A stretch of DNA of 51,544 nt, the filler included, from Actinobacteria bacterium UBA7524 (GTDB lineage Bacteria > Actinomycetota > Coriobacteriia > Anaerosomatales > UBA912), in the NCBI GenBank assembly GCA_002478275.1. It is 5 parts of 5 records of this genome, joined end to end, with 100 filler letters (N's around TTAATTAATTAA, not from the genome) between each part and the next. Parts side by side here need not be neighbours in the genome. Positions count along the whole stretch, not along the records: positions 30,072 to 45,722 come from DLMY01000012.1; 4 more parts are not named here. One strand, given 5' to 3'. The position numbers are program-made. Position 1 is the first letter of the stretch; every line of letters starts with the position of its first letter. Shown one piece after another: positions 35,901-44,774 of this stretch.

Positions 35901-38900
35901 AAGGGTGGACAGCCCGAGGACATCGAGCCCGCGAGGATCGATCTCATGGATGTCTCTCCTCGGCAGATCGTGTCCGTGGCCACGGCGCTGATCCCGTTCC
36001 TGGAGCACGACGACGCGAACCGTGCACTCATGGGTTCGAACATGCAGCGACAGGCGGTTCCGTTGCTTCGGCCCGCCGCGCCGCTGGTCGGTACCGGCCT
36101 TGAGCACCGCGCTTCCATCGACACCGGGGAGATCGTGCTTGCGCGAAGGCCCGGCGTGGTCGAGTACGTCGATAGCATCAAGGTCATCGTGCGCGTCAAG
36201 GACGGCACCATCGACGAGTACCATCTCCCCAAGTTCCTTCGCTCGAACCAGGGCACGTGCATCAACCATCGCCCGATCGTGGCTGAAGGCCAGAAGGTCA
36301 AGGCCGGTGATGTGCTGGCTGATGGATCTTCGAGCGATATGGGTGACCTTGCGTTGGGGCGCAACCTGCTCGTGGCGTTCATGCCGTGGGAGGGCTACAA
36401 CTACGAGGACGCGATCATCTTGTCGGAACGCCTCGTCAAGGAGGACGTCCTCACCTCGATCCACATCGAGGAGTACGAGGTCGAGGCACGCGACACCAAG
36501 CTGGGTCCCGAGGAGATCACCCGCGAGATTCCGAACGTCGGCGAAGACGTACTCGCCAACCTCGACGAGGACGGCATCATCAGGATCGGCGCCGAGGTGT
36601 TCCCTGGCGACGTGTTGGTGGGCAAGGTCACCCCTAAGGGAGAGACCGAGCTGACCGCCGAGGAGAGACTGCTCAGGGCGATCTTCGGCGAGAAAGCGCG
36701 CGAGGTGCGCGACACGTCGCTCAAGGTACCCCACGGCGAGACCGGCCGCGTCATGGGCGTGCGCAAGTTCAGCCGCGACGCGGGCGACGACCTGTCACCC
36801 GGAGTCAATGAGCTCGTCCGTGTCTACGTGGCACAGAAGCGCAAGGTGTCCGAAGGCGACAAGCTCGCGGGACGCCACGGCAACAAAGGTGTCATCTCGA
36901 AGATCCTGCCTGTGGAGGACATGCCGTTCCTCGCTGACGGGACTCCTGTGGACGTCATCCTCAACCCGCTCGGAGTGCCGAGCCGTATGAACATCGGGCA
37001 GTTGCTCGAGACGCATCTCGGCTGGGCGGCTCACGTGGGTTGGTCGGACGATCCTAAGTCGAAAGAGCCTGTCGAAGGCCCCATGTTCGTTGCCACGCCG
37101 GTGTTCGACGGTGCGACGGAAGGCGAGATATCCGACGTGCTTGACGCCGCCAACCGCAACATGAAGGCCAAGTACACCAAGCGCTTCGGCAAGAAGGTTC
37201 TCGAGGATGCGGTTCCTCAGTTGACTCGTGAAGGCAAGGCGACGCTGTTCGACGGACGCACGGGGGAGCCATTCCGTGAGCCCGTCACTGTCGGCCAGAT
37301 CTACGTGCTCAAGCTACTGCACCTTGTCGATGACAAGATCCACGCTCGTTCGACGGGCCCGTACTCCCTCATCACCCAGCAGCCGCTTGGTGGTAAGGCG
37401 CAGTTCGGTGGCCAGAGGTTCGGCGAGATGGAAGTCTGGGCGCTGTACGCCTACGGAGCGGCATACGTTCTCCAAGAGATCCTCACCATCAAGTCCGACG
37501 ATGTTCTCGGCCGCGTGAAGGCGTACGAGGCCATCGTCAAGGGTGACAACATTCCCGAGCCGGGCATTCCGGAGTCGTTCAAGGTCCTCGTCAAGGAGAT
37601 GCAGTCGCTGTGCCTCGATGTCGAGATTCTCTCGGAGGACGGCGGGGAGATCGAGCTCAAAGAGGAAGAAGAGGACATCTTCAAGACCGCCGAGGAACTC
37701 GGTCTCGACCTGGGCTCAGGTGAAGGTCTGGGAACCGAGGAAGTCGACACGAACGCCCTGGAAGAGCTTATCGAAAGTGACATCTCGGCACTGGATCTTG
37801 CCGGCGACATCGACGAGGAGGAGTAACACGTGCTCGACGTCGACGTGAACAATTTCGATCGTCTGCGGATCGGTCTGGCATCTTCGGAGCAGATCCGTCA
37901 GTGGTCACGTGGTGAGGTCAAGAAGCCCGAGACCATCAACTACCGCACGCTCAAGCCGGAGAAGGACGGGCTCTTCTGCGAGAAGATCTTCGGTCCCACC
38001 AAGGACTGGGAGTGCTACTGCGGCAAGTACAAGAGGGTGCGCTTCAAGGGCATTGTCTGCGAGCGCTGCGGTGTCGAGGTCACACGGGCAAAGGTCCGCC
38101 GTGACCGCATGGGTCACATCGAGCTGGCCGCCTCCGTGAGCCATATCTGGTACTTCAAGGGTGTTCCGAGCCGGCTCGGCTACCTTCTCGATATCGCCCC
38201 GAAGGATCTTGAGAAGGTACTCTATTTCGCATCCTCCATCATCACGAGCGTCAACGATGAGGACCGCGAGACGGATCTGACCATGCTCAAGGACGAGCTT
38301 GCCGCCGATCTCGATGGACTCGACGCCGAGAAGGCCGAAGAGATCGCTGCGATCACCGAAGAGAGAGATCGGTTGATCGCCGTTGCCAAGGGTGAGATTG
38401 AGCCGGAAGAGGGCGATTTCGTCGACGAGGACGTCTCGGCCGCCGATCGTGTCAAGAAGCTCGACAAGGAAGCCGAGCGCGACATCAAGGACATCGAAGA
38501 GGAGTATGCGGATCGTCGCAGCCTCTATCAGGATGCGTTCGACACCTTCGTGAAGCTCAGCCCCAAGATGCTCATCAACGACGAAACGCTCTATCGTGAG
38601 ATGAAGAGTCGTTATGGAGACTACTTCCGGGGTGGCATGGGAGCCGAAGCGGTCAAGGACCTCCTCCAGCAGGTCGATCTCGATGCTCTGGGCGAGGAGC
38701 TTCGCACCCAGATCCGCGATGGAAAAGGTCAGAAGAAGGCCAAAGCGGTCAAGCGCCTCAAGGTCGTTGCGGCCTTCAAGGGGTCGAAGAACCGGCCTGA
38801 GTGGATGATCCTAGACGCCATCCCTGTGATCCCGCCGGACCTGCGCCCGATGGTGCAGCTCGATGGTGGCCGCTTCGCGACCTCGGACCTCAACGATCTT

Positions 38901-41900: not shown

Positions 41901-44774
41901 GAGCCCGAGGCCGTTCCGGTGTCGGAGACCGAAGGCGGGAACGAGATCACCTCGGACACCTCCTTGACTGAACTGGGCATACCGATCCGCATCGAGAAGG
42001 CTTTGATAGCGGCAGGGTTGACCACGGTAGGCGAGATCGCTGCCAGGTCGGAAAGCGACCTGCTGGCGATAGACGGAATCGGCCCCAAGGCGGTCGTCGA
42101 GGTACATGAGCGTTTGGCGGCAGCGGGAGTAACCATTCCCTGAAGTACCCTCAGGTAGACACGGTCGGCCGGGTGGCCTTCAAGGTGCCCGGCCGATCTG
42201 CATGTCCCGACCGGGATGCGGGAGAGACTGCGTTATTGATAGATACGCCCGGATGCGTGGCGTTTGACATGCTTGGGGAGCCCTGATAGAGTTGCAGCTT
42301 GTGGCTCTATCCTCGGCGGCCTGTATTGACAGTCCGGGCTGCCGCGATGAAGTGAAACCGTAGGGGAAAGAAGGAGAGCGCGTTGCCCACGATCAATCAA
42401 CTGGTCCGTAAGGGCCGCAAGGCGAAGGCGACCAAGAGCGCGACACCTGCCCTCAAGGGCAACCCGCAGAAGCGGGGAGTGTGTACTCGTGTCTACACGA
42501 CGACCCCGAAGAAGCCGAACTCGGCCCTTCGCAAGGTCGCGCGTGTGAGGTTGACCAACCAGATGGAGGTCACGGCATACATCCCTGGCATCGGCCACAA
42601 CCTGCAGGAGCACTCGATCGTGCTCGTGCGTGGCGGTCGAGTGAAGGATCTGCCGGGCGTGCGGTACAAGGTTATCCGCGGGACTCTCGATGCGGCCGGT
42701 GTCAGCGACCGCAACCAGGCCCGTTCGCGTTACGGTGCAAAGAAGGCCAAGTAGGGAGTTCAGACACCGCCGTGCCGGACGATACGGCGCGGAGGTCTCG
42801 ATGATGCGAGGAGCGTAGAGAATGCCCAGGCGTGCAGCAGCGACCCGGCGCGAGATCGCGCCAGACCCTGTATACAACAACCGTCTCGTCACGCAGCTGA
42901 TAAACAAGGTGCTCTGGGACGGGAAGCGTTCAATCGCCGAGCGGATCGTCTATGACGCGTTCGCTATCGTCGAGCAGAAGCTCGGCTCGGATCCATTGGC
43001 CGCCTTCAAGAAGGCGATGGACAACGTCCGTCCCACGCTCGAGGTTCGTCCGAAGCGTGTAGGTGGAGCGACGTATCAGGTACCCGTCGAGGTCAACTCC
43101 CGCCGTTCGACGACGCTGGCGATACGCTGGATGGTCGGATTCGCGCGCGGTCGTCGCGAGAAGACGATGGCCGAGAGGCTCGCGGGCGAGATCATGGATG
43201 CCGCGAATGGAACCGGCGCCTCGGTCAAGAAGCGCGAGGACCTGTACAAGATGGCCGAATCCAACAGGGCGTTCAGCCACTACCGCTGGTAGCGGCGGAG
43301 CGTTTTTCACTGAGTCTCAGGACGCGATAGGGAAGCAGAGGACACTACCCGAATGGCTTCGAAGAGATATCCACTGACCAAGACCCGCAACATCGGGATC
43401 ATGGCCCATATCGACGCCGGTAAGACGACGACTACCGAGCGGATACTGTTCTATACGGGCAAGTCTCATAAGATCGGCGAGGTTCATGATGGCGCTGCGA
43501 CGATGGACTGGATGGTCCAGGAGCAGGAGCGCGGCATCACCATCACCTCGGCCGCTACGACGTGCTTCTGGAAAGACCATCGGATTCAGATTATCGATAC
43601 GCCCGGGCACGTGGACTTCACCGTCGAGGTAGAGCGGTCGCTCCGTGTGCTCGACGGCACCTGCGCCGTATTCTGCGCCGTCGGTGGTGTCGAGCCCCAG
43701 TCCGAGACGGTCTGGCGCCAGGCGGACCACTATGGGGTCCCGCGGATGGCGTACATCAACAAGATGGACCGCACAGGGGCGGACTTCTTCAACGTCGTGC
43801 AGATGATGAAGGATCGACTCAACACCCGTCCCGTCCTGCTCCAGTTGCCGATCGGCGCCGAGGACCAGTTCAGCGGTATCGTGGACCTATTGACCATGAA
43901 GGCCACGTTCTTCAACGAGGACGACAAGGGCATCAACCCGACAGAGGGTGACATACCGGAGGGCCTCGTCGACGAGGCGGAGCTCTACAGGCATGAGCTG
44001 GTCGAGGCCGCCGCCGAGTACGACGATGGTCTCCTTGAGAAGTTCCTTGCTGACGAGGAGATCGGCATCGACGAACTCAAGAAGGCCCTCAGGCAGGCGA
44101 CCATCGACTGTGCCATCACGCCGGTGGTGTGCGGCGCCTCCTTCAAGAACAAGGGCGTCCAGCCGCTTCTCGACGCTATCATCGACTATCTGCCTTCTCC
44201 GCTCGACATCCCCGCCATCAAGGGCGTCGATGCCAAGAGCGGCGATGAGGTGACTCGCGAGGCTGATGACAAGGCACCGTTCGCGGCTCTTGCGTTCAAG
44301 GTCATGACCGACCCCTACGTCGGCAAACTGACGTACTTCCGCGTCTACTCCGGCAAGATGGACGCCGGTTCGTACATCCTCAACTCGACGAAGGGCCACA
44401 AGGAGCGCATCGGTCGCCTTCTCGAGATGCACGCGAACACGCGTGAGGACATCAATGACGTCTCGGCCGGCGACATCGTCGCGGCCGTCGGGCTCAAGAA
44501 CACCACCACGGGCGACACTCTGTGCGCCGAGGACGCTCCGGTCATCCTGGAGTCGATGGAGTTCCCCGACCCGGTCATCGACATCGCCATCGAGCCGAAG
44601 ACGAAGGCCGATCAGGAGAAGCTTGGCAGCTCACTTGCGCGCCTCGCCGAGGAGGACCCGACGTTTCGCGTGCGGACGGACGAGGAGACCGGCCAGACGA
44701 TCATCGCCGGTATGGGCGAGTTGCACCTCGAGGTCATCGTCGACCGGCTGCTTCGCGAGTTCAAGATCGAGGCG

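What a model noticed while it worked through the whole genome (the two positions that open the first line are those of the whole stretch)
37830..42143. RNA polymerase beta-prime ends in a tethered alphaCTD-like domain, class-wide in Coriobacteriia
RpoC (1437 aa) carries, after a ~160-residue linker, a C-terminal domain (aa 1374-1430) homologous to the C-terminal domain of the alpha subunit, while RpoA keeps its own. The same tail is present in relatives of the order, in other orders of Coriobacteriia and in one genome of another class of the phylum.
Evidence so far: PF03118 35.6 bits vs cut-off 23.8; PDB phmmer top 23 rows all alpha subunits; 35.6% identity to own RpoA CTD; alignment reaches residue >=1430 in 25 of 40 relatives; RpoC frames 1463-1492 aa in 10 of 10 other-order class genomes vs about 1265-1345 aa in 29 of 32 RpoC rows from other classes; PF03118 at 33.8-48.9 bits in 8 of 8 fetched extended tails, none in the contrast; alignment A1.
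(Added by a program. Inside this text positions count along the whole contig: they may not be those of the stretch shown here. "Call 12" and the like, gene names such as g00115 and contig names such as C1 are that model's own, and its searches are not shown. The text may have been shortened before it was handed on; [...] marks where a part breaks off. The agent that wrote the report below was given it as the finding of a first reader that could run no searches.)

Follow-up and report, generated by a model that had tools for sequence, protein, structure and literature searches.

The report
RNA polymerase beta-prime with alpha-CTD-like tail
The largest subunit of this bacterium's RNA polymerase ends in a long acidic tether carrying a small domain of the kind that normally sits on the alpha subunit and touches promoter DNA; the feature is shared by many gut and sediment relatives and has not been studied.

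Summary
rpoC (window 37830-42143, +) encodes a 1437-aa beta-prime. Its last 64 residues match Pfam PF03118 (35.6 bits, cut-off 23.8). A profile of 27 such tails hits solved alpha-CTDs at E 1.3e-20. The AlphaFold model (pLDDT 96-98) overlays them at about 0.9 A. The genome's RpoA keeps its own CTD.

"Class-wide" needs correcting. The long tail is class-wide. In the window's own order, 48 of 49 genomes from eight families lack a second PF03118 match. Nine fetched tails there end in two CCCH zinc fingers, 75% identical to a finger on ribosomal protein bL21.

Outside the class the alpha-CTD-like tail occurs in three further families, sometimes doubled. Named carriers include Olsenella uli and Gordonibacter pamelaeae.

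The Arg, Gly and Lys aligned to E. coli DNA-contact residues R265, G296 and K298 are kept. The position of the sigma-contact E261 is always Gly.

Most likely role, inferred only: a third tethered DNA-contact module. Six paper searches found no description. Verdict: new variant of a known kind, function untested.

The parts
37830..42143 (+). rpoC, beta-prime subunit of RNA polymerase, 1437 aa, stop codon included
   Evidence: ORF. Pfam Rpb1 domains 1-5. TIGR02386 1750.8 bits and NF011498 2211.7 bits.
37863..41648 (+). conserved beta-prime core (aa 12-1273)
   Evidence: Extent of the TIGR02386 match.
41649..41948 (+). acidic linker, 100 aa (aa 1274-1373): 26 Asp+Glu against 4 Lys+Arg
   Evidence: Composition. 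AlphaFold pLDDT is mostly 48-84, with two short helices and a hairpin.
41709..41759 (+). linker motif 1, [17 protein letters not shown] (aa 1294-1310); predicted helix
   Evidence: P36, L43 and P51 are invariant in 27 of 27 tails of alignment A1. The motif is also kept in the zinc-finger tails. Helix 41-49 of the model.
41796..41843 (+). linker motif 2, [16 protein letters not shown] (aa 1323-1338); predicted amphipathic helix
   Evidence: Helix 64-79 of the model, pLDDT about 80. Conserved within the order.
41859..41894 (+). linker motif 3, [12 protein letters not shown] (aa 1344-1355)
   Evidence: F94 and P96 are invariant and D85 is at least 90% conserved in A1. The motif is present in 8 of 9 zinc-finger tails. 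In Coriobacteriales-type tails a similar motif lies after the domain.
41949..42140 (+). alpha-CTD-like helix-hairpin-helix domain (aa 1374-1437)
   Evidence: PF03118 35.6 bits. Profile against PDB E 1.3e-20. Model pLDDT 96-98. Rmsd 0.9 A over 62 columns to 3n4m_B and TM 0.88 to 1z3e_B.
41988..41990 (+). Arg 1387, aligned with the DNA-contact Arg265 of E. coli alpha (numbering recalled)
   Evidence: Arg in 27 of 27 class tails in A1 and 21 of 21 class rows in A3.
42075..42089 (+). hairpin GIGPK (aa 1416-1420), aligned with E. coli G296-K298
   Evidence: Gly in 21 of 21 and Lys in 19 of 21 class rows.

Best explanation
Shown: the beta-prime subunit of this organism carries three things after its conserved core. 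These are a 100-residue strongly acidic and largely disordered tether, three conserved short motifs within it, and a terminal 64-residue domain of the alpha-CTD (helix-hairpin-helix) family. This arrangement is old. It is shared by the orders of the class and by three further families of the phylum. It is under purifying selection and coexists with a normal RpoA CTD.

Inferred, about 45% likely: the domain acts as a third tethered nucleic-acid-contact module of the polymerase. Like an alpha-CTD on its linker, it would swing from the beta-prime C-terminus, which lies beside omega, and bind the DNA backbone or minor groove near promoters through the conserved Arg and the Gly-x-Lys hairpin. That would add contacts that stabilise initiation complexes or offer an extra docking point. 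It probably does not copy the alpha-CTD contact with sigma region 4, because that position is always Gly.

In one clade of the same order the head was exchanged for two CCCH zinc fingers while the tether and its motifs were kept. This argues that the selected property is 'a small nucleic-acid-binding head on this tether', not the alpha-CTD fold as such.
For: Family membership: PF03118 35.6 bits against 23.8. A profile of 27 tails hits B. subtilis alpha-CTD 1z3e_B at E 1.3e-20, and the first 51 rows are all alpha subunits.

Fold: pLDDT 96-98 over the domain. Rmsd is 0.9 A over 62 columns to E. coli alpha-CTD in its DNA complex 3n4m_B. TM is 0.88 to 1z3e_B and 0.91 to 7vpd_S.

DNA-contact positions in 21 class rows: R265 21/21, G296 21/21, K298 19/21, N268 10/21.

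Purifying selection: dN/dS is 0.09-0.19 in 7 of 10 computable pairs.

Tether: 26 acidic against 4 basic residues in 100 aa.

Head exchange: 9 of 9 fetched tails of f2, f8 and f10 carry two CCCH fingers with all eight ligands invariant on the same linker motifs. Those 9 rows form one side of a branch (SH-aLRT 91) nested among alpha-CTD-bearing rows on a tree of the core only, which needs one change.

Doubled heads: two copies in G310 and G215.

Against: No binding or activity was tested, and no tool here can model DNA. In the window's own protein N268 is Lys and S299 is Ala. S299 is Ala in 20 of 21 class rows. The domain is net acidic, -5 here and -1 to -8 in 26 of 27 rows. It hangs on a polyanionic tether, which could oppose DNA binding. 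In family f46 the Arg is Tyr in 3 of 3 rows. Two pairs gave dN/dS of 0.67 and 0.79. RpoC tails evolve much faster than RpoA CTDs: end branches are 0.3-1.1 against 0-0.2. The zinc finger that replaces the domain also sits on ribosomal protein bL21, which fits RNA binding as well as DNA binding.
Confidence: 0.45

Rival explanations
1. The domain is a protein-docking site rather than a DNA binder. It would give transcription factors that normally use alpha-CTD, such as activators, Spx-like proteins or NusA, a third landing pad. Alternatively it would bind another part of the polymerase.
For: Solved alpha-CTDs among the best fold matches are bound to partners, for example Spx (1z3e_B, 3gfk_B), CAP (3n4m, 1lb2) and AfsR (8hvr). 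The profile also reaches the NusA C-terminal repeats at E 5e-7. The domain is acidic. The conserved linker motifs look like short docking peptides.
Against: The most strictly conserved surface residues are those aligned with the DNA contacts R265, G296 and K298. The E261 position is Gly in 21 of 21 rows. Replacement by zinc fingers of a different fold is hard to square with one specific protein partner.
Confidence: 0.2
2. The tail works on RNA or on coupling to the ribosome. From its exit point beside omega, the head would bind nascent RNA or a ribosomal site, and the tether would act as a recruiting platform.
For: In the zinc-finger clade, RpoC finger 1 is 21/28 identical to the C-terminal finger of ribosomal protein bL21 of the same order, E 2e-13. 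bL21 carries that finger in the window's own genome too. The finger also matches the TRM13 tRNA-methyltransferase CCCH model above its cut-off, 30-34 bits against 20.9.
Against: This evidence concerns the replacement head, not the alpha-CTD-like domain in the window. Alpha-CTDs are known as DNA and protein binders (established knowledge, recalled). The only structural match of the finger is weak and is to the MCM10 DNA-binding finger (E 0.64).
Confidence: 0.12
3. The acidic tether is the active part. It would act as a nucleic-acid mimic that competes with non-specific DNA or RNA for the polymerase, as the acidic tail of the Firmicute delta subunit or sigma region 1.1 does (recalled). The head would only anchor or regulate it.
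For: The linker has 26 acidic against 4 basic residues in 100 aa. Tails of all groups end or continue in acidic stretches. The linker motifs are kept when the head is swapped.
Against: The tethers of f40 and f47 are short, about 40-60 aa, and lack the class motifs, yet they keep the head. The head is the best-conserved part of the tail: mean column identity is 51% in A3 against 30% over the whole tail in A2.
Confidence: 0.1
4. The tail is a relic without function, or an assembly or annotation artefact.
For: None positive. The function is untested, and dN/dS was 0.67-0.79 in 2 of 10 computable pairs.
Against: The reading frame is unbroken in every fetched tail: 40 from the class and 8 from other classes. 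At least 561 stretches in species-representative genomes encode the domain. Some residues are invariant. dN/dS is 0.09-0.19 in most pairs.
Confidence: 0.02

Closest known systems
[quoted passage not shown] E. coli 3n4m/1lb2, B. subtilis 1z3e, S. coelicolor 7vpd)
   Same: Same sequence family and same predicted fold. It hangs on a flexible tether from the polymerase core. The Arg and Gly-x-Lys positions that contact DNA in E. coli are conserved.
   Different: It is attached to beta-prime, not to the alpha N-terminal domain, so there is one per enzyme in addition to the two genuine ones. The tether is about 100 aa and polyanionic. The E261 position is Gly, S299 is Ala and N268 is variable. It evolves several times faster than RpoA CTDs of the same genomes.
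Lineage-specific domain additions to beta and beta-prime (the BEAN and HABAS insertions of PMC11515920; E. coli SI3)
   Same: A lineage-restricted extra domain on a large polymerase subunit.
   Different: Those are internal insertions of other folds. PMC11515920 masked the N- and C-terminal residues beyond the shared core (passages seen), so it does not treat this tail.
PF03118-like repeats in non-polymerase proteins (ResIII/SNF2 helicases with 3-4 copies, sigma-70 region 4 proteins, PglW-type Ser/Thr kinases)
   Same: Same domain family used as an appended module, often in tandem.
   Different: Their hosts are defence-type or unknown proteins, not the polymerase. In the domain tree most group with RpoA CTDs or on long branches.
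C-terminal repeat domain of eukaryotic RNA polymerase II Rpb1 (analogy only, recalled)
   Same: A disordered tether with conserved short motifs leaving the C-terminus of the homologous largest subunit, beside the omega/Rpb6 homologue.
   Different: There are no heptad repeats, no sequence relation and no evidence of phosphorylation. The bacterial tail ends in a folded domain.
Delta subunit (RpoE) of Firmicutes and the NusA acidic C-terminal repeats (recalled; NusA repeats hit at E 5e-7)
   Same: Small folded domains combined with acidic, flexible segments in the transcription apparatus.
   Different: They are separate proteins. Delta has a different fold, and the NusA repeats are only remotely similar.

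Membership tests
Bacterial beta-prime subunit (TIGR02386 / NF011498 equivalogs) | Whole-protein score above the curated cut-off | tested here: met
   TIGR02386 1750.8 bits against 963.5; NF011498 2211.7 against 1437.
Bacterial beta-prime subunit | Gene context rplKAJL-rpoB-rpoC-rpsLG-fusA | tested here: met
   Pfam scan of the neighbouring ORFs.
Alpha-CTD domain family (PF03118) | Sequence match above the gathering score | tested here: met
   35.6 bits against 23.8 at aa 1374-1430; 41.3 bits in the six-frame scan; the profile of tails reaches solved alpha-CTDs at E 1.3e-20.
Alpha-CTD domain family (PF03118) | Compact helical fold with helix-hairpin-helix, superimposable on solved alpha-CTDs | tested here: met
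   This rests on a predicted model, not a solved structure. pLDDT is 96-98. Rmsd is 0.9-1.0 A over 59-63 columns, and TM normalised to the target is 0.78-0.91.
Alpha-CTD domain family (PF03118) | DNA-contact residues R265, N268, G296, K298, S299 (E. coli numbering, recalled) | tested here: inconclusive
   In the window's protein R, G and K are kept, N is replaced by K and S by A. In 21 class rows: R 21, G 21, K 19, N 10, S 1.
Alpha-CTD domain family (PF03118) | Acidic residue at the sigma region 4 contact (E261, recalled) | tested here: not met
   Gly in 21 of 21 class rows.
RNA polymerase alpha subunit (RpoA) itself | The domain follows the alpha N-terminal dimerisation domain | tested here: not met
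   The domain follows the beta-prime core. The true RpoA lies on another contig (G000:C9) with its own CTD at 96.3 bits.
Alpha-CTD domain family (PF03118) | Binds DNA (UP-element type) or activators | not testable with these tools
   No assay is available and no protein-DNA modelling is offered.
DUF5763 / TRM13-type CCCH zinc finger (the alternative head in relatives) | CCCH ligands and a Pfam match | tested here: not met
   The window's RpoC has no such finger: no PF19067 match in G000 and none in the sequence. Relatives in f2, f8 and f10 have two fingers, at 28.9-33.8 bits against 26.3.

The most novel reading that the evidence does not exclude
The beta-prime tail may be a bacterial counterpart of a polymerase 'CTD platform'. 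A disordered tether with conserved docking motifs would leave the enzyme beside omega. Its exchangeable head (alpha-CTD-like domain, or the same zinc finger that ribosomal protein bL21 carries in this order) would tie the transcribing polymerase to nascent RNA or to the ribosome. That would make it a lineage-specific, hard-wired device for transcription-translation or transcription-RNA-processing coupling.
Probability: 0.1. Interest if true: 0.85.

Novelty: new variant of a known kind. Interest (0 to 1): 0.62.

Why it matters
All textbook bacterial polymerases carry two alpha-CTDs as their only tethered DNA and activator contacts. An enzyme with a third such module, wired to beta-prime, would change how promoter architecture and activation should be read in this group. 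The group includes common human gut genera: Eggerthella, Gordonibacter, Collinsella and Olsenella are named.

The natural swap of head (alpha-CTD-like, two zinc fingers, or two alpha-CTD-like copies) on a conserved tether is a ready-made comparative experiment.

The question is directly testable with cultured species. One can compare tail deletion, isolated-domain binding and cryo-EM of the holoenzyme on promoter DNA.

Databases already hold the architecture silently. NCBI's beta-prime model NF011498 spans the Coriobacteriales-type tail (338 bits over model positions 1241-1454). Precomputed Pfam lists show PF03118 or PF19067 on these proteins, which the sources call simply beta-prime.

Tried and rejected
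(1) An all-library profile search (alignment A2, beta-prime end plus tail) was meant to find such fusions in any phylum. Its best 150 rows were swamped by proteins with up to 13 tandem PF03118-like repeats. Presence outside the phylum therefore stays untested.

(2) Correlation with loss of RbpA. RbpA was found in 0 of 31 class genomes and 0 of 22 genomes of f40, f46 and f47. It was also missing from most other families, being present in only 52 of 401 genomes overall. It does not discriminate.

(3) Origin of the domain. The 65-column tree of 74 domains leaves the deep forks open. It shows that 21 of the 25 RpoA CTD rows, including all those from the class, form a group (91/85) that holds no RpoC tail. 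The three f46 tails fall on the RpoA side. No donor can be named.

(4) Foldseek of the zinc-finger tail model gave no match at E <= 0.001. The best was the MCM10 finger at E 0.64, probability 0.95, which is only a hint.

(5) Three long frames with PF03118 outside the class (G480, G462, G291) turned out to be Ser/Thr kinases, not RpoC.

(6) Lane and Darst 2010 (PMC2813377) and Iyer et al. 2004 are not held, so their lists of lineage-specific features could not be checked.

(8) No complex prediction was run, because the report claims no specific protein partner.

(9) The first related-loci run failed because alignment A3 was too diverse. A narrower alignment, A4, worked.

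
Full report
**What is there**

The window is several contigs joined by runs of N. The finding lies on the contig that begins at window position 30072. 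That contig carries the usual rpmG-secE-nusG-rplKAJL-rpoB-rpoC-rpsLG-fusA row.

rpoC runs from 37830 to 42143 on the + strand and gives 1437 residues. Pfam finds the five Rpb1 domains and, at residues 1374-1430, PF03118 (alpha-subunit C-terminal domain) at 35.6 bits against a cut-off of 23.8. Two NCBI beta-prime equivalog models are met far above their cut-offs. TIGR02386 ends at residue 1273.

Between 1274 and 1373 lie 100 residues with 26 Asp+Glu and 4 Lys+Arg.

**Is the terminal domain really of the alpha-CTD family?**

Four lines of evidence say yes.

- Single-sequence phmmer against PDB gave alpha subunits in the first 22 rows, best 8.9e-6.
- BLASTP against the genome's own RpoA gave 21/59 identical, E 2e-11.
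- A profile of 27 RpoC tail domains (alignment A3) hit B. subtilis alpha-CTD 1z3e_B at E 1.3e-20 over the whole domain. The first 51 rows were all alpha subunits, followed by a Hel308-type helicase and NusA.
- AlphaFold2 run on a 27-row alignment (A1) gave pLDDT 96-98 for the last 60 residues. Foldseek placed the model on solved alpha-CTDs at rmsd 0.9 A over 62 columns (3n4m_B, the E. coli alpha-CTD-CAP-DNA complex). TM normalised to the target was 0.88 (1z3e_B) and 0.91 (7vpd_S). All listed matches were alpha subunits, at probabilities of 0.99-1.00; E-values were only about 2e-3 because the query includes the disordered tether.

The genome's RpoA, on contig C9, keeps a canonical CTD at 96.3 bits.

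**Distribution in the class**

I scanned 201 genomes of the class for PF03118. Counts below are genomes with at least two matches at E <= 0.001.

- Other orders: 105 of 108 genomes (f19 2/2, f20 25/25, f21 7/10, f22 19/19, f23 3/3, f24 47/47, f25 2/2).
- Own order, ten families (f1, f3, f4, f5, f6, f7, f9, f12, f15, f17): 43 of 44.
- Own order, eight families (f2, f8, f10, f11, f13, f14, f16, f18): 1 of 49.

A second match is not by itself proof that it lies in RpoC. I therefore fetched 40 tails.

- 31 end in or contain the alpha-CTD-like domain in the rpoC frame.
- 9 (seven from f2, one each from f8 and f10) end instead in two tandem CCCH zinc fingers. These score over the cut-offs of DUF5763 (28.9-33.8 bits against 26.3) and of the TRM13 CCCH finger (30.4-33.9 against 20.9). 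All eight metal ligands are invariant.

A scan of 121 genomes of the order for DUF5763 placed such fingers in RpoC-size frames. This held in most f2 and f16 genomes with a match (17 of 19 and 11 of 15 overall), and also in f8, f10, f11, f14 and f106.

Complete RpoC frames in the class measure 1411-1600 aa. So the extension is class-wide while its head is not.

On a tree built from 150 core columns only, the nine finger-bearing rows form one side of a branch (SH-aLRT 91) nested among alpha-CTD-bearing rows. This needs one change. Families f11, f14 and f16 were not in that tree.

**Beyond the class**

In a sample of 401 genomes of the phylum, 46 of the 369 non-class genomes had two or more matches. 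I examined 45 of them; G495, which is unpublished, was left out.

RpoC-size frames, or RpoC frames cut by a contig end, with PF03118 occur in three families:

- f47: 11 of 16 genomes
- f46: 3 of 3
- f40: 2 of 3

Of 11 frames fetched, 8 were confirmed as rpoC. The other three (G480, G462, G291) are Ser/Thr kinases. G310 (f47) and G215 (f40) carry two tandem copies. The tethers there are short, about 40-60 aa, and lack the class motifs.

**Named organisms**

The 80 kept include Olsenella uli DSM 7084, O. profusa, Gordonibacter pamelaeae, G. faecis, Collinsella sp., Thermophilibacter provencensis and many metagenome bins labelled Coriobacteriia.

In 70 of the 80, a strict beta-prime core motif lies upstream in the same open frame. 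Seven of the other ten have open frames of 639-668 aa whose core motif differs from my pattern. In three my pattern for the domain itself did not match.

Close relatives of the window's protein are labelled 'Coriobacteriia bacterium'. One finger-bearing relative is labelled 'Anaerosomatales bacterium'. All are named simply beta-prime.

**Anatomy of the tail**

Alignment A1 (27 rows from the class) has invariant positions in the tether: P36, L43 and P51 in LPEFAPxELxELExxLP, and F94 and P96 in DVSxFxxxVF(D/E)P.

It also has invariant positions in the domain: G124, R128, G137, G157, G159, E165 and L170.

The finger-bearing tails keep motifs 1 and 2 in 9 of 9 rows and motif 3 in 8 of 9. In Coriobacteriales-type tails the domain is internal. 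It is followed by about 100 further residues containing a motif-3-like DxSQLLxMVF(S/A)PD.

I mapped positions onto E. coli numbering, which I recall rather than take from a call. The mapping went through the alignment with RpoA. In the 21 class rows of A3:

- R265 is Arg in 21
- G296 is Gly in 21
- K298 is Lys in 19
- N268 is Asn in 10 (Lys in the window's protein)
- S299 is Ser in 1 and Ala in 20
- E261 is Gly in 21

In f46 the Arg is Tyr in 3 of 3 rows. Net charge of the domain is -5 in the window and -1 to -8 in 26 of 27 rows.

dN/dS over the domain is 0.09-0.19 in 7 of 10 computable pairs. It is 0.37 in one pair and 0.67 and 0.79 in two; one further pair was saturated. These are 64-66 codons each, so the values are rough.

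**Origin**

In the tree of 74 domains, 21 of the 25 RpoA CTD rows, including all those from the class, form a group (91/85) that holds no RpoC tail. The RpoC tails of the class, f40 and f47 lie on the other side of a weak branch (47/94), and the f46 tails lie on the RpoA side.

Tail branches are several times longer than RpoA branches. The tails are therefore old and fast-evolving, not recent copies of rpoA. One origin or several cannot be decided.

PF03118-like domains are also widespread as appended modules in helicases, sigma-region-4 proteins and kinases. A donor other than rpoA is possible.

**A side result that bears on function**

The short frames with one DUF5763-type finger seen are ribosomal protein bL21. 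They carry a Lys/Ala/Pro-rich linker and a C-terminal CCCH finger. This is true in the window's own genome too (G000:C45, 190 aa).

Finger 1 of a finger-bearing RpoC is 21/28 identical to the bL21 finger of another family of the order, E 2e-13. The head that replaced the alpha-CTD-like domain is thus a module that the same lineage uses on a ribosomal protein.

The finger model (pLDDT 80-88) has only a weak structural match, to the zinc finger of MCM10 (E 0.64, probability 0.95, rmsd 1.5 A over 35 columns).

**Mechanism**

Shown: a conserved, folded alpha-CTD-family head on a long acidic tether at the beta-prime C-terminus, coexisting with a normal RpoA.

Inferred: it serves as a third tethered nucleic-acid contact of the enzyme. 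Four arguments support this.

- Exactly the residues that touch DNA in E. coli alpha-CTD are kept, while the sigma-contact position is lost.
- The architecture copies the alpha linker-plus-head design.
- Heads are exchanged (fingers) or doubled while the attachment point is kept.
- The beta-prime C-terminus lies by omega (PMC3985657, passage seen), from where 100 residues can span the enzyme.

Against it stand the acidity of the head and tether, the Asn and Ser replacements, the Tyr in f46 and the absence of any assay. I put this reading at about 0.45.

The rivals are a protein-docking pad (0.2), RNA or ribosome coupling suggested by the bL21 finger (0.12), a polyanionic mimic in which the tether is the active part (0.1), and no function (0.02).

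**Novelty**

Six full-text searches found no description of a beta-prime alpha-CTD-like tail or of DUF5763. The 2024 survey of beta and beta-prime domain architectures masked terminal extensions (PMC11515920, passages seen).

Lane and Darst 2010 and Iyer et al. 2004 could not be read, and domain-database architecture pages could not be consulted.

The feature is silently present in databases. NCBIfam NF011498 (1459 positions) covers a Coriobacteriales-type tail at 338 bits over positions 1241-1454. It matches the window's head at 29.3 bits. Precomputed Pfam lists show PF03118 or PF19067 on these proteins.

I rate it a new variant of a known kind, of real interest to transcription specialists and directly testable, with function unknown.

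Noticed in passing
Own genome G000:C45 (L177:1501-2070, +), outside the window; also L173-L176 in relatives: Ribosomal protein bL21 (190 aa) carries a Lys/Ala/Pro-rich linker and a C-terminal CCCH zinc finger. The finger is of the same type, up to 75% identical, as the two fingers that end RpoC in families f2, f8 and f10.
   Followed up: partly
Own genome G000:C8 (L003:709-3150, +), outside the window: A protein of more than 814 aa has weak alpha-CTD-like stretches (14.1 bits) and a sigma-70 region 4-like helix-turn-helix (23.3 bits against a cut-off of 24.1). It resembles the multi-repeat PF03118 plus Sigma70_r4 proteins.
   Followed up: partly
G215:C14 (L171), a genome of family f40: The RpoA of this genome has two PF03118 domains in one 414-aa frame (88.9 and 35.6 bits). 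Its RpoC has two alpha-CTD-like heads plus an HhH-like stretch inside a core insertion.
   Followed up: no
G057:C24:6205-6666 and G042:C3:203168-203617 (relatives of the same order): Second rpoC-like frames (1315 aa and 594 aa; 60% and 51% identical to the window's core end) sit beside the regular rpoC. They could be paralogues or contamination.
   Followed up: no
window 8001-12000: G+C drops to 0.42-0.43 against 0.58-0.65 elsewhere. This lies on another contig of the joined window.
   Followed up: no
Library proteins P0002-P0005, P0040, P0049, P0085, P0114, P0129: Large families of proteins carry 3 to 13 tandem PF03118-like domains, often fused to ResIII/SNF2 helicase, Mrr-type nuclease or sigma-70 region 4 modules.
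   Followed up: partly
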